64,000 nt of DNA. Source: Nitrososphaerota archaeon (GTDB lineage Archaea; Thermoproteota; Nitrososphaeria; Nitrososphaerales; Nitrosopumilaceae). The number at the start of each line of letters is the position of its first letter. The stretch's first letter is position 1. The stretch is taken from the NCBI GenBank assembly GCA_028867755.1, contig JAGWFT010000002.1, positions 208,018 through 272,017 of the forward strand. The letters are read 5' to 3'. The notes beneath the pieces are model-generated. The model did no database searches and was not told the origin of the DNA. It saw only the letters and a program-made list of their open reading frames with translations. A program made the position numbers and the translations under genes. Shown piece by piece: positions 3,140 through 14,765 of this stretch.

Positions 3140-3835
3140 ATGCCGGAACTTAAACTACAACACATACTAACACTTGCAGAATTATTCGCCAAGGGTGCTC
3201 GTTACAATTTCATTCCAATAACAACCTCGTCTCTTGGAAAAAGCATCCACAAGTCTCAGCAAGCTGCATCAAAACATCTCTTGGAACTGGAATCAGATGG
3301 ATATATTGAGAGGTTAAGGACTGGACCCAAAGTATCAGTCAGGATTACGACCAAGGGACATGCAGAAATGTCAAAAATTTTTTCTGCACTAAAATCAAGT
3401 CTTGAAACCTTTCCATCATATGTAGAGTTCAAAGGTGTAATAATTTCCGGGATGGGAGAGGGGGCGTACTATATGTCAATGAAAGGATATACAAAACAAT
3501 TCAAGTCAAAGCTTGGATACATTCCATTTCCTGGAACACTAAACGTAAAACTAAAAGACCGTGAGTTTATCGAAGCAAAACGATCACTTGATGTACATCC
3601 TGCAATAATGGTAAACGGTTTTTCTGATGGCAAGCGAACCTATGGCTGGGTCAAGTGCTATCCTGCAAAGGTTAACAATATTGTGGATGCTGCACTGATT
3701 TTGCTTGAAAGAACACACCACGATGATTCCATAATAGAGCTCATCTCAAAAGAGAACATCAAAAAATCGATAAAACTTTCAACAGGTTCTCAGGTTACGA
3801 TTCGGGTAAATGTAAAACCCAAAACTATACAGTGA
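3140..3835 (+). CDS. ribK: CTP-dependent riboflavin kinase with N-terminal winged HTH (RbkR-type)
   Basis: HTH SQQAASKHLLELE; kinase motifs SGMGEGAYY, PFPGTLN, ERTHH. Confidence 0.92.
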   Translation: MPELKLQHILTLAELFAKGARYNFIPITTSSLGKSIHKSQQAASKHLLELESDGYIERLRTGPKVSVRITTKGHAEMSKIFSALKSSLETFPSYVEFKGVIISGMGEGAYYMSMKGYTKQFKSKLGYIPFPGTLNVKLKDREFIEAKRSLDVHPAIMVNGFSDGKRTYGWVKCYPAKVNNIVDAALILLERTHHDDSIIELISKENIKKSIKLSTGSQVTIRVNVKPKTIQ

Positions 3836-3848
3836 TTATACATCAAAC

Positions 3849-4475
3849 TCAGAGACCATAGATAGATTTTCCGTAATCGCTTTCTATCTTTGAGCTCTTA
3901 ATGTCAGGTATTGGTGACTGGAGCCTTGCAATTGATACCTCAACTCCTATCTTTTTGCATCCATCTATGATGAATTTCTCTTGGTGTATCTGGTCATATC
4001 CCAGTGCTATGATGTCAGGTCTTACTTTTTCCACAGTCCTGAATATGTCTCCTTCGCGGCCAACTACTGCATAGTCTACTGTTGATAATGAGCTGACAAG
4101 ATCCCTTCGCAATTCCATGTTGTGCAGAGGCATTCGTTTTTTCATCTTTTGTGCTGTGGTATCAGTTGCAACCACCACAACTAGGACATTACCAAGAGCT
4201 CTTGCACCCCTTAGTGTGTGTATGTGTCCTGGATGTATGATGTCAAAGACGCCTCCTGCAAGCACAACCCTAATCGAGCCTCGTCCAAGATCGGTAAGTG
4301 TCCTGTCTTTTTCAATAAAGCCATTTTTTTCAAGAGAGTCTAGTCTGCTTGAGATATAGTCATTGCTGACAGATAGTTTCTTTCTAATTGTCTCTAGAGG
4401 ATCTTCTCCTGAAAGTGACGAGACATAGCACGCTGAAATTAATTCCTTGTCAAATGCGTCCAAGTGTACCATCAA
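3849..4475 (-). CDS. ribL: FAD synthetase (cytidylyltransferase family) with N-terminal HTH-like region
   Basis: GGVFDIIHPGHI (HIGH-like), PDIIALGYDQ. Confidence 0.85.
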   Translation of the reverse strand: MMVHLDAFDKELISACYVSSLSGEDPLETIRKKLSVSNDYISSRLDSLEKNGFIEKDRTLTDLGRGSIRVVLAGGVFDIIHPGHIHTLRGARALGNVLVVVVATDTTAQKMKKRMPLHNMELRRDLVSSLSTVDYAVVGREGDIFRTVEKVRPDIIALGYDQIHQEKFIIDGCKKIGVEVSIARLQSPIPDIKSSKIESDYGKSIYGL

Positions 4476-4501
4476 GGATCCAGTTTTACCACTTCATTAA
4501 T

Positions 4502-5539
4502 CTATGTCCATGGGTCTATGCCCTTGGACAGGCGCAGTGCATCAATCAACCCCTCTGCATACCCAATGCTAAGTATTGCAAGCTCTTCTTTTCCTTCACT
4601 TTGAAATTTTTCAGCATCATCGATATACAGCTGCGCATTTTCTATGACAGGCTGTAAGTTTCTGTCATCTTTGAACATCTTGATTACCTCGTCTAGTGCC
4701 CTTCTTGCCTTTGGAACATATTTTGTAATCATCTGATCTGATATTTTTTGAATCTTTGATGAATTGTCAAATGGCTCGTCAAGACATTTGGCAAACGCCT
4801 TGAGCGCATCTGTTTCTGTAAAATGCATCCTTCCTGGAATGATTATTGTATGCGGAGGTTTTCCAAAATCAATCTTGGCAAGACTTGATAGTTTTCCAGC
4901 TGTTATGTTCTGAGATTTTGAACCAATTCTTGAAGCTATTATGGCATACATTGAATCATCTATGACACTTCGCTTTTGTTCTTTTTCTGCAAACAAGAGG
5001 CTCGAGATTGCATCTTTTGGATCTAAAAAGAAATTTTCAATGCTACTGTATTCAAGTATCAAAATACTGTGTGCACCCTTTATGAGATTCTCGTAGATAG
5101 TATAGTATACGGTACTCCAAGACTGCTGCTCTCTCATTACCGTTACAGGGCGTCCAATCTTGTAATACTGCAGCCCACACTCGCCAACAAGGGATGGGAT
5201 TGCAGATGCTGCATGCACGGTCTTGGTTCTTATCTTTTCAAGCTCTGCTCTTGTTCGAAGCTCGATATGGGTGGTCGCAATGTAAGGATCACCATATGCA
5301 AGAAGGACGACTGTCTTTTTCTTGGCCTCGGCAAGAATTGTCTTTCCGTCCTCCACTAGCCACCGTGGAGCAACCCGAAACCTGTTTTTGACAAGTTTTT
5401 TTATTTTAGACTGGTCACTTTTTGGTATAGGGCTAGTAAAGTTCTCAAAGAATACCACATCAGCTTTTTTTAAAATCTTAATAGTATCAGGACTTGTCCC
5501 ATCGATTCCAGATATTCCAAGACCAATAAACCACAGCAT
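4502..5539 (-). CDS. dph5: Diphthine synthase with C-terminal DUF357-like helical domain
   Basis: LWFIGLG, GDPYIATTH, PPHTIIIPG; C-terminal A..Y..DA..F...G....A..SIGYAEGLIDAL. Confidence 0.9.
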   Translation of the reverse strand: MLWFIGLGISGIDGTSPDTIKILKKADVVFFENFTSPIPKSDQSKIKKLVKNRFRVAPRWLVEDGKTILAEAKKKTVVLLAYGDPYIATTHIELRTRAELEKIRTKTVHAASAIPSLVGECGLQYYKIGRPVTVMREQQSWSTVYYTIYENLIKGAHSILILEYSSIENFFLDPKDAISSLLFAEKEQKRSVIDDSMYAIIASRIGSKSQNITAGKLSSLAKIDFGKPPHTIIIPGRMHFTETDALKAFAKCLDEPFDNSSKIQKISDQMITKYVPKARRALDEVIKMFKDDRNLQPVIENAQLYIDDAEKFQSEGKEELAILSIGYAEGLIDALRLSKGIDPWT

Positions 5540-6721: not shown

Positions 6722-7570
6722 TTATTTTCTCGATTGTGTTGCGTAGTCTATCATCAAGGCTGGTATATCTACGCCAGTAACCCTTACGGTATTTTTGTAT
6801 TCCGTTGTGTTGTTAACCTCGTGAACTACCAGGCCATTTTCCTTGCTTTCCATTAGATCAACGCCTACTATCTGCCCTTGTACAGCATTTTTTGCCTTTA
6901 TGCAAATGTCTTCGAGTTCCTTTGTCACTTTCATGGGCTCTGCCTTGCCGCCTAGCGCCATGTTTGTCTTCCACTGTCCCTCACCAGAATAGCGGTATAT
7001 TGCAGCAACAACCTTGTCGCCTATCATTATTGCTCTAATGTCGCGGGGAGGTCTGTTGACAAATTCTTCGAGATAATACACTTGATAAATTGGATACATT
7101 GATTCCCGTGTCTCCATTATTCCTTGTGCAGAATCACGGTCATTTAGCAGTGCTATCATCCTTCCCCAGCTTCCAACAGTTGGTTTTAGAACCATCGGGT
7201 ATCCCCTTTTTTCTAAAAGTTCTAGTGCAGCTTCTTCAGAGAATGCGACTGCACTAAATGGAGTTGGGATACCGTTCTTTACTAATAACATGTGGGTGAA
7301 GAGCTTGTTTCCAGCAAATATGCTGGTGTTAAGTCCATTGATGACATTGACTCCTTTTCCTTCAAGTGCTGCTGTAGAATGAAGACTGCGATAATAGCTT
7401 ACACATCTTTGTATGGCAGTACCATACTCTTCTTTGCTTTTGTCCAAATTGATGAATAAACTCTTGCAATCAACCATCTTTGCTTCGACGCCCTTTTTCC
7501 TTGCGGCATCGAACAGAGCTTTTTCTTCCCACCTGATGGTATCGTAGAGTATCGATAGAACCGAGCTCAC
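6722..7570 (-). CDS. lysX: Alpha-aminoadipate--LysW ligase (RimK-family ATP-grasp)
   Basis: KPTVGSWGR, RDIR, WKTNMALG, HEVN; downstream of homocitrate synthase and lysW; GTG start overlaps the lysW stop. Confidence 0.88.
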   Translation of the reverse strand: MSSVLSILYDTIRWEEKALFDAARKKGVEAKMVDCKSLFINLDKSKEEYGTAIQRCVSYYRSLHSTAALEGKGVNVINGLNTSIFAGNKLFTHMLLVKNGIPTPFSAVAFSEEAALELLEKRGYPMVLKPTVGSWGRMIALLNDRDSAQGIMETRESMYPIYQVYYLEEFVNRPPRDIRAIMIGDKVVAAIYRYSGEGQWKTNMALGGKAEPMKVTKELEDICIKAKNAVQGQIVGVDLMESKENGLVVHEVNNTTEYKNTVRVTGVDIPALMIDYATQSRK

Positions 7571-7731
7571 TGGCCCCAGTCCTCACCAACAGTTTGTGCT
7601 GGTTTTAACTCAAAGCCTGAGGATCCTTTGGATAACTCAAAACTTGCACCACAGTCTGGGCAAGTCACAATCTCTCCCTCCATCGAATCTTTTGGGGGGT
7701 TGATATTGGCATCACATTCTGGACATTTCAT
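7567..7731 (-). CDS. lysW: LysW-family amino-group carrier protein, copy 2 (ends EDWGQ); 54 aa, below the ORF-track cutoff
   Basis: Manual translation MKCPECDANINPPKDSMEGEIVTCPDCGASFELSKGSSGFELKPAQTVGEDWGQ; two CxxC motifs. Confidence 0.93.
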   Translation of the reverse strand: MKCPECDANINPPKDSMEGEIVTCPDCGASFELSKGSSGFELKPAQTVGEDWGQ

Positions 7732-7732
7732 A

Positions 7733-8923
7733 TTATTTACCTGTCTTTACCTTAACTTTGGTGTCATTAATTATCTTTCTTTCAAGCCTGTCATCAAGCG
7801 GTATCTCAAGCAGGTCTCCCATCCTTAGGTCCTTGAGGCCTGCTGCCACCTTCTTTGCGTGTTCTTCATCTTGGTCAAGACCTAAAAGCGACATGAGATA
7901 TGCTGCACCATTCTTGCCTGCAAGCTCGCCAAATACTATTTTTCTCCTGTTGCCCACTACCTTTGGTTCAATTGGTTCGTATGCTGCGGGATTTCGAAGA
8001 ATTGCAGCCAAGTGAGTTCCTGCCTTGTGTTTGTATGCGGTTGCACCAACAACTGGCTTGGAGTCATATGGTACAATTCCTGTATATTGCTCAATTAGTC
8101 TTGAGAGGTCCATGAGCATATCAAGCCTGAAATTATTTGGAGATTTGTAAAGATAGGTAAGTGTTACAGCTGTTTCTGCAAGTGCTGGTATCCCGGTCCT
8201 TTCGCCAATACCGTCGATGGTTGTATGTATCTGGTCGGCTCCTGCATCACATCCTGCAAGTGCGTTTGCTAGTGCTAGTCCCATGTCATTGTGGCAGTGC
8301 ACGTCAAGTGGAGTCTTGATTTTCTCGCGAACTGTCTTTACAAGATTGTACATGCCGTTAGGTCTCATTATTCCAACAGTATCAGGTATGCTGATTCTGT
8401 CAACACCTGCATCTGAGATCTCTTTGCAAACCTTGAGGAGAAACTCTGGATCAGCCCTGCTTCCGTCTTCCACTGTAAATCGCATCTTAAACCCATGTGA
8501 CTTGGCATACTCGACTGTCTCGACTGCCCTTTGCAATGCCTCTTCTCTTGTAATTCTAAGCTTGTCTTTCATGTGTATGTCTGAGATTCCAAGATATGTT
8601 GCCATCCACGTGGCATCACACTCTAGTGCAATATCTACATCTTCTTTGAGGGCACGCACGTGAGCTACAATGTCTGCCTTGAGTCCTTGCTTGATTATTG
8701 TCTTGGTGGCCTCTTTGTGATCTGGCGATATTACAGGTGAAATCTCAATTTGGTCAACTCCAAAATAATCAAGCATCCATGCAATCTGGATTCTTTGTTT
8801 GTTAGAAAACGTAACCCCTGGGTGCTGCTCTCCTTCTCGCAGTGTACTATCCAAGATATGGATCTTCTTTGGTTTTTGTCCAATCTCGTTATACTTGTAT
8901 GCGTAATAATTCGGATCGTCCAT
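7733..8923 (-). CDS. Homocitrate synthase (2-isopropylmalate synthase/HCS family)
   Basis: DSTLREGEQ, HCHND.G, GIGERTG; lysine-cluster context favours homocitrate synthase. Confidence 0.85.
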   Translation of the reverse strand: MDDPNYYAYKYNEIGQKPKKIHILDSTLREGEQHPGVTFSNKQRIQIAWMLDYFGVDQIEISPVISPDHKEATKTIIKQGLKADIVAHVRALKEDVDIALECDATWMATYLGISDIHMKDKLRITREEALQRAVETVEYAKSHGFKMRFTVEDGSRADPEFLLKVCKEISDAGVDRISIPDTVGIMRPNGMYNLVKTVREKIKTPLDVHCHNDMGLALANALAGCDAGADQIHTTIDGIGERTGIPALAETAVTLTYLYKSPNNFRLDMLMDLSRLIEQYTGIVPYDSKPVVGATAYKHKAGTHLAAILRNPAAYEPIEPKVVGNRRKIVFGELAGKNGAAYLMSLLGLDQDEEHAKKVAAGLKDLRMGDLLEIPLDDRLERKIINDTKVKVKTGK

Positions 8924-9039: not shown

Positions 9040-9459
9040 TTATGATACAGTTCTTAGTATGATGACAGTGTTTGTGTCAAAAACACCGGGTACCTTGCGT
9101 AGTGCATCTATGCATGCGTTAATCTCTGTGATGTTGGGAGCTCTGATAACTGTTGCAATGTCATACTGACCTGTTATCTCGTAAACTGTATGGACTCCTT
9201 GGAGTTTTGATAGTCTTGCTGAAACCTTTGATGTGTCTGTTGAGGAATCAACAGATATCAAAATTATTGCACTAGTTGAATTACTGTCTCCAGTCTCGAT
9301 CGTAAATTTTTTTATTGTACCACCGTCGGTTAGGTTTTTTACTCTGCGCCTTACTGCAGACTCTGACAGTCCAAGCTTTTGGCCTATTTCTACAAAAGAT
9401 TGTCTTGAATCTTTTTTTAGCATCTCAATTATTGTTTCGTCTGTCTTGTCTCTAGACAT
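9040..9459 (-). CDS. Lrp/AsnC-family regulator (LysM-like)
   Basis: N-terminal HTH DSRQSFVEIGQKLGLSESAVRRRV and C-terminal RAM domain VYEITGQYD; inside the lys/arg cluster. Confidence 0.92.
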   Translation of the reverse strand: MSRDKTDETIIEMLKKDSRQSFVEIGQKLGLSESAVRRRVKNLTDGGTIKKFTIETGDSNSTSAIILISVDSSTDTSKVSARLSKLQGVHTVYEITGQYDIATVIRAPNITEINACIDALRKVPGVFDTNTVIILRTVS

Positions 9460-10627
9460 TTCTTCTTTGTACCTCTTTTGTTAGTATTATATCTAGAGTT
9501 TCTAAAGTTTTGTTTATGTCAGACTCTGAAATGACAAGAGGAGGCAACAGTCTCAGTATGTTCTTTCCGGAATAGAGAAGAAGCAGGTTGTTTGCAATTC
9601 CGTCAAACAAGATATCTTTTACCTCAAACTTCATCTCAACTCCAATCATCAATCCCTTGCCACGAATCTCGCGAACTATCTTGTGTTTTTCTTTTAGTCT
9701 TTCCAGTCCCTCTCGGAAGAGCTTACCCATCTTGGCTGCGTTTTCGACCAGTCCATCTTCTGTCAGGGCCTGAATCGTAGCAATTCCACCAGCACATGAA
9801 AGCGGGTTACCGCCAAAAGTTGATGACTGTTCTCCCTTTCCAATACATGCAAGAATCTCTGGCTTGACCAGAGTTGCACCCATGGGCACTCCTCCTGCAA
9901 TTCCCTTTGCAAGACACATCATATCTGGTGCTGTATCCCAGTGCTGGCTTGCCCACATTTTGCCAGTCCTTCCAAGACCTGCCTGGATCTCATCGAAGAT
10001 CAAAACTGTTCCGTTCTCATTGCACAACTTTCTTACCTCTTGCAGAAAACCTTCTGGTGCCACATGGATTCCACTCTCTCCTTGAATTGGCTCTAGTATG
10101 ACAAGTGCAGTATCAGGAGTCATTGCAGACTTGAGAGCCTCGATATCACCAAATGGAGTAAAGGAGACATTGCTTAGAAGAGGCTCAAAGGCCTTGCGAT
10201 ATTTTGGATTAAATGTAAGTGAGAGTGAACCAAATGACTTGCCGTGGTAAGAGCCGTTCATTGCAATCATTCCCTTCTTTCCTGTGAACTTACGTGCAAA
10301 TTTTATTGCAGCTTCTACTGCCTCTGTGCCGCTGTTGTTTAGATATACCTGACCAAGACCAGGTAGTGAAATTTTAGCAAGTTTTTCAAGAAACTCTTCT
10401 CGGGTCTTGTTGTAAAGCGAACTGTGGACAGTGATTATTTTGTCAAGCTGTGACTTTAGTGCCTTTACTACACGCGGATTGCAGTGACCAACAAGGGCAA
10501 CACCGTATCCTCCCATGCAATCGATGTACTCTTTTCCGTTAAGGTCCCAGACATGGGCCCCAAGTCCTCGCTCTATTGTTACAGGAAATCTTTGGTAAAT
10601 ATTTCCCATGAATTGGTCTTCTGTCAT
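9452..10627 (-). CDS. argD: [LysW]-aminoadipate/glutamate semialdehyde aminotransferase (ArgD/LysJ)
   Basis: NSGTEAVEAA, EPIQGESG, FDEIQAGLGRTG, AKG; likely ATG at 10627 overlapping the upstream stop. Confidence 0.9.
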   Translation of the reverse strand: MTEDQFMGNIYQRFPVTIERGLGAHVWDLNGKEYIDCMGGYGVALVGHCNPRVVKALKSQLDKIITVHSSLYNKTREEFLEKLAKISLPGLGQVYLNNSGTEAVEAAIKFARKFTGKKGMIAMNGSYHGKSFGSLSLTFNPKYRKAFEPLLSNVSFTPFGDIEALKSAMTPDTALVILEPIQGESGIHVAPEGFLQEVRKLCNENGTVLIFDEIQAGLGRTGKMWASQHWDTAPDMMCLAKGIAGGVPMGATLVKPEILACIGKGEQSSTFGGNPLSCAGGIATIQALTEDGLVENAAKMGKLFREGLERLKEKHKIVREIRGKGLMIGVEMKFEVKDILFDGIANNLLLLYSGKNILRLLPPLVISESDINKTLETLDIILTKEVQRRNV

Positions 10628-11424
10628 TTTGATATCACCGTACAATTGTCGTTAGCTATGGCTCGTGATATTGGGTTTTCCCTCTGGCCGCTTGCAACTA
10701 GTGCCTGTTTTACACCCATCTCGATTGCTTCTGTAGCAGCTAGTATTTTCTTTTCCATGCCAAATCCTATCTTTGGAAGAATTGCCTTGGCCTCGTCAAG
10801 TGATAGTTTTGTCACTAGCTTGTCATCCATCAAAAGGCCGTCCACGTTAGTGAGAAACAAAATCTTGTCTGACTGCATCTTGCCTGCTACATAGGCAGCA
10901 GCTCTGTCACCATCTACATTTAGAAAATCAAATTCTTCACTTGTGGCAATAGGTGAGATTACCGGGACGTATCCTTGGTCTAAGATTACTTTTATGAGGT
11001 CAGTGTTTATCTCGCGTATCTTCCCTGTATATCCGCCGTCAATTGCCATCTTTCTTCCTTTTTCATTGATTACAATTAGTTTCTTTTTTCTCTCTGCCTG
11101 GATTATCTTGCCATCAATACCTGAAAGACCAACTGCATTGATTCCATTTTTCTGTAGCATTCCTACAATCATCTTGTTTATCTTGCCTGACATTACCATG
11201 GTGAAAATTTCTGCAGTCTCCTTGTCAGTGTACCTACTCTTGATGCCGCCAGGTGAAACTATGAATTTTTGTTCTTTTCCAAGAGCTTCTGAGATCCTCG
11301 TTACTTCTTTTCCTCCACCATGTACCAAAATTACTTTTTCTTGCTCTGAGACTTTTTTCAAGTCTGATATGGTAGAAGGATGAAGACCGTCTACAACACT
11401 TCCTCCTATCTTGATTGTGATCAT
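10624..11424 (-). CDS. argB: [LysW]-aminoadipate/glutamate kinase (ArgB/LysZ)
   Basis: IKIGGS, VHGGG, LNVDGDRAA, GGM-like KIGFGMEKK. Confidence 0.9.
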   Translation of the reverse strand: MITIKIGGSVVDGLHPSTISDLKKVSEQEKVILVHGGGKEVTRISEALGKEQKFIVSPGGIKSRYTDKETAEIFTMVMSGKINKMIVGMLQKNGINAVGLSGIDGKIIQAERKKKLIVINEKGRKMAIDGGYTGKIREINTDLIKVILDQGYVPVISPIATSEEFDFLNVDGDRAAAYVAGKMQSDKILFLTNVDGLLMDDKLVTKLSLDEAKAILPKIGFGMEKKILAATEAIEMGVKQALVASGQRENPISRAIANDNCTVISK

Positions 11425-11428
11425 CTTT

Positions 11429-12481
11429 TCACACAGGAGTTAGCGGGGAATATGCAAGGCCGTCCATCTCGTTGAACCCTGACATCACGTTCATGTTTTG
11501 TATGGCTGAGCCTGCTGCACCCTTCATTAGGTTGTCTGATGCTGATAATACCACTAACCTGTTGTTGTCTTCGTCAATATCAAACCCAACATCACAAAAG
11601 TTCGAGCCTACCACGAACTTTGGATCTGGGAACTTGTAGAATCCTTTCTTGTCACGAATTAGTCTGATGAACTTTTCATTTTGATATTGTTCACGATATA
11701 TCTTCCACAAATCCATTTCTGTTACTGGCTGCGTAAGAAATGTGTGGTTTGTGCACAAGATTCCTCTTACAATGTCTACTGCATGTGGACTCATTGATAT
11801 TTTGATCTTCTTTCCAGCTGCCTGGCTTAGCTCTTGCTCTATCTCTCCTGTATGTCTGTGCTTTGCTGGCTTGTATGGTCTGACAACACCTGACCTCATT
11901 GCATGATGGGTCCCTGCCTCAGAGCCTGCTCCAGCTCCTGAAGAGCCTATCTTGGAATCTACAATAATGTGTTCAGTGTCTATGATTCCTTTCTTTACCA
12001 GTGGGTATAGCGCAAGAATTGATGTTACTGCCATGCATCCAGGGCATGATACAAGCTGTGCCTTTTTGATCTCTTCTCTGTGAAGTTCTGGAACTCCAAA
12101 TACTGATTTTGGTAGATAGTCTGGATGTGGATGCTGCCAGCCGTACCACTTGTCATAGTCTGGTGCATTGTGCAATCTATAGTCTGCACTCAAATCAATT
12201 ACTTTCATTCCCCTGTCGTACAACTCTTTTACAATATCTACCGCTGTTCCATGTGGTACAGATGTAAAGACCAAGTCGCACTTGTCTGATAACTTGTCAT
12301 AATTTAGTTCCGAAAAAGTTAGATCAGTAAATCCTTTGAGGCTTGGCTGAATTCTGGAGATATATTCTCCAACATGTTGTCTTGAAGTTACTGCTGCAAT
12401 CTCAACTTTGGGATGGCTGACAAGCAGTCTGAGTATTTCTCCTCCAACATATCCTGATGCCCCGATTACTCCTATTCTCAT
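11429..12481 (-). CDS. argC: [LysW]-acyl-phosphate reductase (ArgC/LysY)
   Basis: GASGYVG, catalytic PGC, DNLMKGAAG. Confidence 0.92.
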   Translation of the reverse strand: MRIGVIGASGYVGGEILRLLVSHPKVEIAAVTSRQHVGEYISRIQPSLKGFTDLTFSELNYDKLSDKCDLVFTSVPHGTAVDIVKELYDRGMKVIDLSADYRLHNAPDYDKWYGWQHPHPDYLPKSVFGVPELHREEIKKAQLVSCPGCMAVTSILALYPLVKKGIIDTEHIIVDSKIGSSGAGAGSEAGTHHAMRSGVVRPYKPAKHRHTGEIEQELSQAAGKKIKISMSPHAVDIVRGILCTNHTFLTQPVTEMDLWKIYREQYQNEKFIRLIRDKKGFYKFPDPKFVVGSNFCDVGFDIDEDNNRLVVLSASDNLMKGAAGSAIQNMNVMSGFNEMDGLAYSPLTPV

Positions 12482-12540: not shown

Positions 12541-13398
12541 TTATCTAACTGCTGAGCTAACTGCATACTCAATCATCTCTTTTGGAATATTGCGTTTGGC
12601 AACCTTTGCCAATCCCTTAAACTCTACAGTATTGTTGACCTCGTGAACTACAAATCCTCTTTTTTCATCTTCCATGATGTCAATTCCAAGAATTCCTCCT
12701 CCAACTGCTTTTGATGCTTTCATGCAAATATCTTCTAGGTCCTTTGTTATCTCGCATGGCACAGGCTCTCCACCGAGCGCGATATTTGTCTTAAATCCTC
12801 CAGACGAGGTCCTGTACATCGCAGCTATGACTTGGTCTCCTACTGCGATTGCCCGGATGTCTCTTGGAGGCCTCTTTATTGCCTCTTGGAGATAAAATAT
12901 CCTGTCAAGCGGGCCATCGGTTAGCTCCCTTACTTCGATAATTGCGTCTGCTGTCTCTCTGTCCTTTAGTAGTATCACTCCCCTTCCCCAGCTTCCTATG
13001 ATTGGCTTGATAACAAGTGGGTATCCTTGTTTTTCAAGCGTCTCAACTGCCGACTCGGACGAGAACGAAAAATAGGTCTTTGGTGTGGGAACGTTGTGTT
13101 TCTTTAGGAGAAGCGATGTTAACATTTTGTTTCCGCAGTTGTTTGCAACCTCAAACTTGTTGAAGACTGGGATATCGAGAAATTCTAGACATGCTGTAAT
13201 GTGCAGACCACGAAAATAGCTGACACATCTTTCAAGTACCACATCACCAAAATCAAAATCATTTTTCTTGCTTTCAGTACTGATGTTAGTTATCTTTGCA
13301 TCGATCATCTTTGTATCATGTCCAAGCTCTATTGCTTTTTCCTCGAGCATTTTCTCTTCTAGTCTTACTCTATCAAACACGATACGGAGTTTGGGCAT
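12541..13398 (-). CDS. argX: Glutamate--LysW ligase (ArgX), LysX paralog
   Basis: ATP-grasp KPIIGSWGRG, FKTNIALG, HEVN; lies between argG-lysW and argC. Substrate assignment is from context only. Confidence 0.75.
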   Translation of the reverse strand: MPKLRIVFDRVRLEEKMLEEKAIELGHDTKMIDAKITNISTESKKNDFDFGDVVLERCVSYFRGLHITACLEFLDIPVFNKFEVANNCGNKMLTSLLLKKHNVPTPKTYFSFSSESAVETLEKQGYPLVIKPIIGSWGRGVILLKDRETADAIIEVRELTDGPLDRIFYLQEAIKRPPRDIRAIAVGDQVIAAMYRTSSGGFKTNIALGGEPVPCEITKDLEDICMKASKAVGGGILGIDIMEDEKRGFVVHEVNNTVEFKGLAKVAKRNIPKEMIEYAVSSAVR

Positions 13399-13566
13399 TT
13401 ACTCTCCCCAATCTTCGCCGACTTTTTCAGCATGTTTTAGTTCGCATACTGCGCCGTTCTTTGAAGCAATCTCAAAATCTGCCCCGCAATCAGGACAAGA
13501 TATTATCTCTCCAACACTTGCGTCACCTGGAATTTTTAAATTTGCATCACATTCTGGACAATTCAT
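13399..13566 (-). CDS. lysW: LysW amino-group carrier protein, copy 1 (canonical EDWGE); 55 aa, below the ORF-track cutoff
   Basis: Manual translation MNCPECDANLKIPGDASVGEIISCPDCGADFEIASKNGAVCELKHAEKVGEDWGE. Confidence 0.95.
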   Translation of the reverse strand: MNCPECDANLKIPGDASVGEIISCPDCGADFEIASKNGAVCELKHAEKVGEDWGE

Positions 13567-13577
13567 TCTTTAATTTT

Positions 13578-14765
13578 TCACCCCTTTTTTAGTAATTTAT
13601 TAGCTTCTGTTGATTGCAGCCCCCACAATTCTACAAATCCTTTTGCAAGGGTCTGGTCGAAAGTGGAACCTGAACCATATGTTGCTAAGTCATGACTATA
13701 CAATGAATAATCTGATTTTCTTCCAACCACTCTAAGACTTCCTTTGAACATTTTGAGCTTTACAGTTCCGCTAACTCTTTTCTGTGACATATTGATAAAC
13801 ATATCTAAATCTGTTTTCAGAGGATCTTGCCAGAGCCCGGAATATGCGAGCCATGCCCATTCCGAGTCAACCATTGCTTTGAATTTTAATTCGTGTTTTG
13901 TAAGAACCATTTTTTCTAGATCGGTATGTGCCTCAATAAGACAGAGAGCTGCTGGCGTCTCGTATACCTCTCGAGATTTTATTCCAACCACTCTGTCCTC
14001 TATGTGATCTACTATTCCAACACCTGCCGCTCCGGCCTTTTTGTTGACGTATTGGATTAACTCCATTGGTTTTAGATTCCTGCCGTCTACTGCCACCGGT
14101 ATTCCCTGCCTGAACTTTATCTCCAAGTACTGTGGCCTGTCTGGCAAGTTTTTTGTCTTGACCCAGATGAAAGCGTCTTCTGGTGGCTCTGCAAATGCAT
14201 CTTCAAGATCACCTCCCTCTATTGCTCTTCCCCAAAGGTTTTGGTCTATGCTAAACCTCTTTGCTGCAGTATCAATCTGTATTCCATGCTTTTTTGCAAA
14301 TTTTAATTCAATATCGCGAGTAAGGTTGAGGTCCCTGATGGGGGCAATGATTGGCAAAGTAGAGCCTGATCGCATGGTGACATCAAATCGCACCTGATCA
14401 TTTCCTTTTCCAGTACAGCCATGAGCCAATGCCTCCGCGTTCTCTTTTTTTGCAATCTCTACTACCTTTTGAGCAATTAATGGTCTTGCAAGAGCCGTTG
14501 CAAGACAATATTTTTTTTGGTATAGTGCATTTGCCTTGATTGAAGGTATTATGAAATCCTCTACAAACTCGCTTCTTGCATCAACGTTGTAATGCCTTAC
14601 CACTCCAAGTTTTTTTGCCTTGGCTGTAATTTTTTTCAGATCGTCGCCCTGACCAACATCAACTGTAATAGTGACTACATCTAGTCCGTGTTTTTCTTGA
14701 AGATATTTTACGACAACAGATGTGTCAAGTCCGCCAGAGAAAGCTAAAACTGCCTTTCCTTTCAT
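13578..14765 (-). CDS. argG: Argininosuccinate synthase
   Basis: LAFSGGLDTS, HGCTGKGNDQVRF, SIDQNLWGR, YETP. Confidence 0.97.
   Translation of the reverse strand: MKGKAVLAFSGGLDTSVVVKYLQEKHGLDVVTITVDVGQGDDLKKITAKAKKLGVVRHYNVDARSEFVEDFIIPSIKANALYQKKYCLATALARPLIAQKVVEIAKKENAEALAHGCTGKGNDQVRFDVTMRSGSTLPIIAPIRDLNLTRDIELKFAKKHGIQIDTAAKRFSIDQNLWGRAIEGGDLEDAFAEPPEDAFIWVKTKNLPDRPQYLEIKFRQGIPVAVDGRNLKPMELIQYVNKKAGAAGVGIVDHIEDRVVGIKSREVYETPAALCLIEAHTDLEKMVLTKHELKFKAMVDSEWAWLAYSGLWQDPLKTDLDMFINMSQKRVSGTVKLKMFKGSLRVVGRKSDYSLYSHDLATYGSGSTFDQTLAKGFVELWGLQSTEANKLLKKG

What the first reader, a model, noticed from the sequence alone, without database searches (positions are those of the whole stretch)
7567..7731. 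Second LysW carrier ends in EDWGQ, lacking the substrate-accepting C-terminal Glu
Seen: codons GAG GAC TGG GGC CAG TGA. Known: LysX/ArgX ligate the amino acid to the gamma-carboxyl of LysW's terminal Glu (EDWGE), so Gln cannot be used by that chemistry. This copy sits between homocitrate synthase and lysX, where the lysine-branch carrier is expected. The GTG overlap with lysX does not force Q, because GAG-TGA overlaps equally well. Inference: post-translational deamidation, a transamidating or alpha-carboxyl-ligating LysX, or a decoy/regulatory carrier that partitions the Lys and Arg branches.
Basis: partly seen in the sequence, partly recalled or inferred. Interest (0 to 1): 0.75.

Follow-up and report, generated by a model that had tools for sequence, protein, structure and literature searches.

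The report
Glutamine-capped LysW lysine carrier protein
The small carrier protein this ammonia-oxidising archaeon uses to build lysine is genuinely encoded with a terminal glutamine where the known chemistry needs a glutamate, and since this holds across ammonia-oxidising archaea and several other lineages, an undescribed uncapping or attachment step must exist.

Summary
Window 7567-7731 (-) encodes a 54-aa LysW ending GEDWGQ (CAG TGA), between homocitrate synthase and lysX.

- **Not an error or one-off.** 115 of 120 orthologue clusters end in Q. So does every lysine-type LysW sampled in three families of ammonia-oxidising archaea (AOA), including genes whose stop does not overlap lysX.
- **Specific to one copy in Nitrosopumilaceae.** The arginine-linked copy ends in E in 113 of 113 full-length clusters. 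Both states therefore look selected.
- **Not a decoy.** In a soil AOA genome and in two other archaeal families the only LysW ends in Q. Gln-ended LysW also sits in ordinary lysWXYZJ operons elsewhere.
- **E and Q swap between close relatives.** An abundant marine lineage has reverted to E with a 95%-identical LysX. Neither LysX nor LysK shows a residue that tracks Q.
- **One shared downstream set.** The genome has a single lysZ, lysY and lysK for both branches.

My best reading (about 50%) is a working carrier made as a Gln-capped pro-form and deamidated to Glu, like Pup/Dop, probably by LysK or LysX. The main rival is ligation to the alpha-carboxyl. No searchable paper contains "EDWGQ". This scan has already noted the same feature in at least 8 other genomes.

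The parts
7567..7731 (-). lysW, lysine-type amino-group carrier protein, 54 aa, ending GEDWGQ
   Evidence: Translation. NF041070 86 bits against a cut-off of 75. Four zinc-ribbon cysteines at C3, C6, C24 and C27.
7570..7572 (-). Terminal Gln codon CAG, where canonical LysW has Glu
   Evidence: Conserved as CAG in 30 of 30 family loci and across AOA families f41 and f42.
6722..7570 (-). lysX, ATP-grasp LysW:aminoadipate ligase. Its GTG start overlaps the lysW stop. It has the GSWGR motif and the ...EYKNT (N-T) aminoadipate-type signature.
   Evidence: TIGR02144 336 bits against a cut-off of 275.6. Best solved relatives are Thermus LysX 3vpd and 1uc8. The signature is as defined in PMC12998189.
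5582..6718 (-). lysK, M20 [LysW]-lysine/ornithine hydrolase. It is the only copy in the genome and a candidate uncapping enzyme.
   Evidence: TIGR01902 256 bits against a cut-off of 163. Single tblastn hit in the genome.
7733..8923 (-). Homocitrate synthase, the first step towards aminoadipate
   Evidence: Top NCBIfam hits are isopropylmalate/homocitrate synthase models, all below their curated cut-offs. Orthologues carry Pfam HMGL-like and HCS_D2.
9040..9459 (-). LysM-type Lrp/AsnC regulator
   Evidence: NF040947 189 bits against a cut-off of 180.
9452..10645 (-). lysJ/argD aminotransferase, shared by both branches
   Evidence: TIGR00707 424 bits. It is the only close copy in the genome.
10624..11424 (-). 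lysZ/argB [LysW]-aminoadipate/glutamate kinase, single copy
   Evidence: NF010662 293 bits.
11429..12481 (-). lysY/argC reductase, single copy
   Evidence: TIGR01850 424 bits.
12541..13398 (-). argX-type ATP-grasp ligase with the G-L signature, partner of the Glu-ended carrier
   Evidence: TIGR02144 305 bits. 48% identical to lysX. It falls in a separate clade of the LysX tree.
13399..13566 (-). lysW/argW, arginine-type carrier, 55 aa, ending GEDWGE
   Evidence: 113 of 113 full-length orthologue clusters end EDWGE.
13578..14765 (-). argG, argininosuccinate synthase, heading the arginine module
   Evidence: ORF and translation. Orthologues carry Pfam Arginosuc_synth.

Best explanation
The gene encodes a working lysine-branch amino-group carrier protein made in a Gln-capped form. 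Shown: it is a bona fide LysW by sequence and operon context. The terminal Gln is inherited and kept by selection across ammonia-oxidising archaea. Gln-ended LysW can be the only carrier of a genome. Inferred: before or during its first loading, the terminal gamma-carboxamide is turned into a gamma-carboxylate (deamidation, releasing ammonia). From then on the carrier cycles as the ordinary Glu form through LysX, LysZ, LysY, LysJ and LysK. The most economical uncapping enzyme is one the pathway already has. LysK normally hydrolyses the gamma-glutamyl amide bond to lysine or ornithine, and a terminal Gln is the simplest such amide. Alternatively LysX could do it through a glutamine-synthetase-like gamma-glutamyl transfer. 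This parallels Pup, which is made ending in GGQ and deamidated by Dop, an enzyme that also cleaves the isopeptide, while some actinobacteria encode GGE directly.
For: - **Carrier identity and context:**
- **Conservation of Q:** 115 of 120 orthologue clusters. All lysine-type LysW sampled in AOA families f1, f41 and f42 end in Q, with or without the lysX overlap. Both Gln codons occur among Q-type genes.
- **Q as the only carrier:** G377 (soil AOA), G129 and G143 (f10), G136 (f16) and G274 (f31) each have one LysW above the Pfam cut-off, and it ends in Q.
- **Ordinary operons elsewhere:** L037, L040 (Ca. Caldarchaeum) and L041.
- **No enzyme re-tooling needed for a swap:** P0282 and P0294 differ only in the last residue. 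The E-revertant lineage L182 (listed in 157 blocks of the collection) has the same operon and a LysX 95% identical to that of its Q sister L185. No LysX or LysK alignment column tracks Q. The LysX tree needs at least 6 E/Q changes.
- **One shared downstream set:** this genome has a single lysZ, lysY and lysK serving the Glu-ended and Gln-ended carriers. That is simplest if both end up with the same gamma linkage.
- **A glutaminase-type release enzyme elsewhere:** in operon L037 a class-II-glutaminase-like hydrolase beginning Met-Cys sits where LysK would be. Such an enzyme could both release the product and uncap Gln.
- **The gamma-carboxylate matters:** ArgW E54A abolishes arginine synthesis in Natrinema (PMC10433800).
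Against: - No deamidase has been identified, and no activity was tested.
- If Q is used only once per molecule, it is hard to see why selection keeps it so strictly. In Nitrosopumilaceae the lysine-type copy is Q in 115 clusters against 2 E, and the arginine-type copy is E in 113 against 0. That pattern would fit a lasting role for Q better.
- LysK shows no substitution linked to Q. This is neutral rather than supportive.
- The L037-type amidohydrolase has no homologue in this genome.
- LysX belongs to the RimK family, whose other members ligate to an alpha-carboxyl, so the rival chemistry has precedent.
Confidence: 0.5

Rival explanations
1. The Gln is permanent. LysX ligates aminoadipate to the free alpha-carboxyl of the terminal Gln, as RimK does with ribosomal protein S6. 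LysK then acts as a carboxypeptidase. The neutral side chain keeps ArgX, which needs a gamma-carboxylate, off the lysine carrier.
For: LysX scores strongly against the RimK alpha-L-glutamate ligase family (TIGR00768, 294 bits). LysK is an M20 enzyme of the carboxypeptidase/deacylase type. The sharp copy-specific split in Nitrosopumilaceae (lysine-type Q in 115 clusters against 2 E, arginine-type E in 113 against 0) is what a lasting identity mark would give. A reversion to E would still leave an alpha-carboxyl, so L182 is compatible.
Against: A single LysZ, LysY, LysJ and LysK would have to process both alpha-linked and gamma-linked substrates. Arginine-type carriers also flip to Q in G379 and G018 while close relatives keep E, and G377 has one Q carrier for both LysX and ArgX. 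ArgX would then have to switch regiochemistry repeatedly. No LysX column tracks Q across 7 Q lineages.
Confidence: 0.2
2. LysX, or another transferase, uses the Gln carboxamide directly as the acyl donor. This could be ADP/phosphate-dependent gamma-glutamyl transfer or ATP-dependent activation of the amide. The first loading would release ammonia with no separate deamidase.
For: It needs no extra gene, which fits the absence of any conserved neighbouring amidase. Glutamine synthetase and Dop show this kind of chemistry (established knowledge, not tested here). E/Q swaps need no LysX change.
Against: This chemistry is not known for ATP-grasp enzymes. After LysK release the carrier is Glu anyway, so it shares the difficulty of explaining selection for Q. 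There is no LysX signature for Q partners.
Confidence: 0.12
3. The Gln-ended protein is a non-substrate decoy or regulator that binds LysX or the downstream enzymes without being loaded.
For: In this genome a Glu-ended LysW is also present, so in principle one carrier could serve both ligases, as in Sulfolobus.
Against: Genomes exist whose only LysW ends in Q and genomes where both copies do (G379, G018). Q-type LysW occupies the carrier position in ordinary operons. An abundant lineage carries E at this position in an otherwise unchanged operon.
Confidence: 0.03
4. Sequencing or assembly error, or a private mutation of this strain.
For: None.
Against: The same codon is found in 30 of 30 related genomes and in hundreds of metagenome clusters.
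Confidence: 0

Closest known systems
LysW/ArgW amino-group carrier proteins of Thermus thermophilus (3wwl), Sulfurisphaera tokodaii (3vpb chain E) and Thermococcus kodakarensis (5k2m chain E)
   Same: Same about 55-aa zinc-ribbon fold family and the same acidic EDWG tail. The gene lies directly upstream of an ATP-grasp LysX that has the GSWGR motif, and the same downstream enzymes LysZ, LysY, LysJ and LysK are present.
   Different: All three solved carriers end in EDWGE, and the substrate is attached to the gamma-carboxyl of that Glu (PMC10433800). Here the last residue is Gln, which has no gamma-carboxylate.
Pup and Dop/PafA of Mycobacterium (prokaryotic ubiquitin-like protein)
   Same: This is a resemblance in how it works, taken from established knowledge and not tested here. 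Pup is a small protein whose terminal gamma-carboxylate is the attachment point. Many species encode it as terminal Gln and some as Glu. The Gln form is deamidated by Dop, which also cleaves the isopeptide bond.
   Different: There is no sequence or fold relationship. The ligase here is an ATP-grasp enzyme, not a glutamine-synthetase-like one. No Dop-like gene was found, and deamidation of LysW has not been shown.
RimK and ribosomal protein S6
   Same: LysX is a RimK-family ATP-grasp ligase (TIGR00768; 4iwx and 5zct). RimK adds an amino acid to the alpha-carboxyl of a protein's C-terminus, which is the chemistry of the main rival explanation.
   Different: RimK adds glutamates processively and has no carrier cycle. 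LysX has only been shown to use the gamma-carboxyl of LysW.
Natrinema gari ArgW E54A mutant (PMC10433800)
   Same: It is an experimental test of the terminal residue of the same carrier family.
   Different: Replacing Glu54 with Ala gave arginine auxotrophy. Nature's replacement here is Gln, which can be converted back to Glu, and it is tolerated or favoured.

Membership tests
LysW/ArgW amino-group carrier protein (NF041070, PF21344) | Profile score above the curated cut-off | tested here: met
   NF041070 86 bits against a cut-off of 75. Orthologues carry PF21344.
LysW/ArgW amino-group carrier protein (NF041070, PF21344) | Zinc ribbon with CxxC...CxxC | tested here: met
   C3, C6, C24 and C27 in the translation.
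LysW/ArgW amino-group carrier protein (NF041070, PF21344) | Acidic C-terminal recognition tail EDWG | tested here: met
   The protein ends ...VGEDWGQ.
LysW/ArgW amino-group carrier protein (NF041070, PF21344) | C-terminal Glu whose gamma-carboxyl carries the substrate | tested here: not met
   The terminal residue is Gln (CAG), conserved in orthologues.
LysW/ArgW amino-group carrier protein (NF041070, PF21344) | Encoded next to a LysX/ArgX ligase within a lysine or arginine operon | tested here: met
   The order is hcs-lysW-lysX-lysK, and the same order is found in relatives.
LysW/ArgW amino-group carrier protein (NF041070, PF21344) | Covalent loading with aminoadipate or glutamate | not testable with these tools
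   This needs mass spectrometry or an in vitro assay.
LysX, LysW:aminoadipate ligase (TIGR02144), for the partner gene | Profile score above the cut-off, GSWGR motif, and N at the TtLysX N258 signature position | tested here: met
   336 bits against a cut-off of 275.6. VGSWGR and ...EYKNT are in the translation. The signature is as described in PMC12998189.
Pup/Dop-type pro-form activation (considered as an analogy only) | Dedicated deamidase homologous to the ligase; terminal GGQ | tested here: not met
   The cluster has no extra LysX-like or amidase gene. The tail is EDWGQ, not GGQ. The resemblance is functional, not membership.

The most novel reading that the evidence does not exclude
The Gln is never converted to Glu. 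LysX would join aminoadipate to the alpha-carboxyl of the terminal Gln, or act through an activated cyclic imide that leaves a lasting alpha-amidated terminus. The lysine carrier of ammonia-oxidising archaea would then carry a chemically different linkage from the arginine carrier. That difference would insulate the two branches even though they share one LysZ/LysY/LysJ/LysK set.
Probability: 0.2. Interest if true: 0.85.

Novelty: new variant of a known kind. Interest (0 to 1): 0.65.

Why it matters
The terminal Glu of LysW is treated as invariant and essential in all published work on carrier-protein lysine and arginine synthesis. Ammonia-oxidising archaea are among the most abundant microbes in oceans and soils. 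All of those sampled here encode Gln at that position in the lysine carrier, and some have no Glu-ended carrier at all. Lysine synthesis, and sometimes arginine synthesis, must therefore include either an undescribed maturation step or an undescribed ligation chemistry. Either one can be tested directly with recombinant LysW, LysX and LysK and with mass spectrometry. It also affects metabolic models of these organisms and how these genes are annotated.

Tried and rejected
- **Reads check:** Conservation makes an error implausible anyway.
- **Literature:** no paper in the library contains "EDWGQ". Searches on LysW with Thaumarchaeota and on carrier-protein papers found only the Glu-ended description.
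- **LysX residues that track Q:** 144 ligases were aligned, covering 7 Q lineages. The best column is the known aminoadipate-versus-glutamate signature position, not a Q-specific one.
- **LysK residues that track Q:** 42 sequences gave only conservative differences.
- **Dedicated amidase:** the class-II-glutaminase-like gene of operon L037 has no homologue in this genome. Neighbourhoods of the same-genus pair G274 (Q) and G223 (E) hold no amidase and are not syntenic.
- **Stop-codon read-through:** considered and dropped. Relatives have TAA or TAG stops, in L043 followed by a second in-frame stop.
- **Complex prediction:** not used. A pass for LysW with LysX or LysK is expected under every hypothesis and would not separate them.

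Full report
**Observation.** The minus strand of window 7567-7731 encodes a 54-residue protein, MKCPECDANINPPKDSMEGEIVTCPDCGASFELSKGSSGFELKPAQTVGEDWGQ. Its last codons are GAG GAC TGG GGC CAG TGA. It scores 86 bits against the archaeal LysW/ArgW carrier model, whose cut-off is 75. The GTG start of the next gene overlaps the stop (caGTGa).

The gene order on the minus strand is argG, lysW ending EDWGE, an argX-type ligase, lysY, lysZ, lysJ, a LysM regulator, homocitrate synthase, lysW ending EDWGQ, lysX and lysK. The whole genome is 99.95% complete. It holds two lysW and two lysX-type ligases but only one lysY, one lysZ, one lysK and one close lysJ. Both carriers therefore feed one downstream enzyme set.

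**Not an error and not a one-off.**
- Of the 120 closest protein clusters in public data, 115 end GEDWGQ.
- All 30 loci fetched from the family read CAG TGA, while the neighbouring Gly codon varies among GGC, GGG and GGA. Three of these loci (L008, L018, L034) come from genomes flagged unpublished; the other 27 say the same.
- The lysine-type LysW also ends in Q in the two other families of the order, f41 and f42. There the stop is often TAA or TAG and does not overlap lysX (L042-L050).
- Arginine-type genes can end GAG-TGA (L051), and Q-type genes elsewhere use CAA (L039, L041, L174).

The amino acid is what is conserved.

**Specific to one copy in Nitrosopumilaceae.** The arginine-linked copy ends EDWGE in 113 of 113 full-length clusters. 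The lysine-linked copy is Q in 115 clusters and E in 2. The two states are one G/C change apart, so both look maintained by selection. The lysine-type tail also has Gln where the arginine type has Glu nine residues upstream (KPAQ against K.AE).

**Distribution beyond this order.**
- Sampled non-ammonia-oxidising families of the same class have one LysW ending in E (29 loci).
- Elsewhere in the phylum, all sampled members of f10 (3) and f16 (4) have a LysW ending in Q. One of two f31 genomes does, and G264 has one of each.
- A Pfam-profile search confirms that G377 (a soil ammonia oxidiser with both LysX and ArgX), G129, G143, G136 and G274 each have a single LysW above the cut-off, and it ends in Q.
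- Among the 150 best representatives at 50% clustering, 89 end W-G-E and 18 end W-G-Q.
- Q-type genes sit in ordinary operons. L037 reads lysW-lysX-lysY-(amidohydrolase)-lysZ-lysJ. L040 (Ca. Caldarchaeum) reads lysY-lysZ-lysW-lysX-lysJ...lysK-argH-argG. L041 reads homoaconitase, homoisocitrate dehydrogenase, then lysW-lysX-lysY-lysZ.

This rules out a decoy as a general reading.

**E and Q interchange easily.**
- Within single 90% clusters the two endings alternate. P0282 and P0294 differ only in the last residue, and P0158 and P0275 also differ there.
- The E-ended marine lineage (P0281, listed in 157 blocks of the collection) has the same operon with GAG-TGA. Its LysX is 95% identical to that of its Q sister, with only conservative differences.
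- Arginine-type carriers end in Q in G379 and G018 while close relatives keep E.
- On a tree of 144 partner ligases the carrier ending changes at least 6 times, and at least 4 of those changes are forced by well-supported branches. The 43 lysine-type ligases of ammonia oxidisers form one clade, all paired with Q.

**No enzyme signature.** No LysX column separates Q partners from E partners. The best candidate is the Asn at the position matching Thermus LysX N258, part of the published aminoadipate-versus-glutamate signature. LysK from Q lineages differs from E lineages only at four conservative positions.

The 212-residue gene inside operon L037 starts Met-Cys and weakly matches class-II glutamine amidotransferase domains. 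It has no homologue in this genome.

**How it most likely works.** Published work shows that substrates attach to the gamma-carboxyl of the terminal Glu, and that ArgW E54A causes arginine auxotrophy (PMC10433800). A Gln cannot be phosphorylated by an ATP-grasp ligase in that way.

My best reading, at about 50%, is that the Gln form is a pro-carrier deamidated to Glu once. Four observations favour it:
- Q-ended carriers are sometimes the only carrier of a genome.
- E and Q swap without changes in LysX or LysK.
- Arginine-type carriers flip to Q within the lineages that already live with a Q carrier.
- One LysZ/LysY/LysJ/LysK set serves both carriers here.

The likeliest uncapping enzyme is LysK, which already hydrolyses gamma-glutamyl amides. 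LysX acting through a gamma-glutamyl transfer is the alternative. This mirrors Pup(GGQ)/Dop by analogy only.

The main weakness is that a one-time cap does not obviously explain the strict Q/E split between the two copies in Nitrosopumilaceae. That split is what keeps alpha-carboxyl ligation alive as a rival, at about 20%.

**Comparison with the known.** All solved LysW structures (3vpb chain E, 3wwl, 5k2m chain E) end in EDWGE. The protein meets every testable LysW criterion except the terminal Glu. It is a variant of a known carrier, not a new kind of system. No paper in the searchable library contains "EDWGQ".

This scan has already flagged the same feature in at least 8 other genomes and twice more in this one. 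The finding is therefore not new to the scan, though I could find no publication describing it.

Noticed in passing
L039:8001-8168 (JGI contig Ga0209486_10000035, 66.6 kb): A LysW-like zinc-ribbon protein ending EDWGQ (P0173, codon CAA) sits on a contig made mostly of tiny ORFs with no Pfam match. The contig looks viral and has no lysX nearby. A TROVE/Ro60 gene and glycosyltransferases lie downstream.
   Followed up: no
window 7594-7596 (-) compared with 13426-13428 (-): The lysine-type tail reads KPAQ.VGEDWGQ, while the arginine-type tail reads K.AE.VGEDWGE. A second Glu-to-Gln difference, nine residues before the end, separates the two copies across ammonia oxidisers. It may be an identity mark for LysX against ArgX.
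   Followed up: partly
LysX tree: The ammonia oxidisers' lysine-type LysX groups (support 82) with homocitrate-synthase-linked LysX of other classes (f14, f20). Their ArgX nests within their own class. The lysine module (hcs-lysW-lysX-lysK) may therefore have a different origin from the arginine module.
   Followed up: no
L037:10113-10751: A 212-aa protein beginning Met-Cys, with weak class-II glutamine amidotransferase matches, lies between lysY and lysZ of a Q-type operon that has no M20 lysK nearby. It is a candidate combined release and uncapping enzyme.
   Followed up: partly
L062-L065, L068, L070, L087, L095-L101 (families f9, f15, f24, f28): These loci show an argG-lysW-lysZ-lysK arrangement with no LysX-type ligase within 3 kb of the carrier gene.
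   Followed up: no
G377:C1:2642458-2649298 (L176, L178): This soil ammonia oxidiser has ArgX and LysX about 6 kb apart but only one LysW, which ends in Q. One carrier apparently serves both ligases there.
   Followed up: partly
window 3140-5539: Downstream of lysK, and conserved with it in relatives (L182), lie a diphthine-synthase-like methylase (4502-5539), a cytidylyltransferase-like gene with an N-terminal helix-turn-helix (3849-4475) and a CTP-dependent riboflavin kinase (3140-3835). They appear unrelated to the carrier pathway.
   Followed up: no
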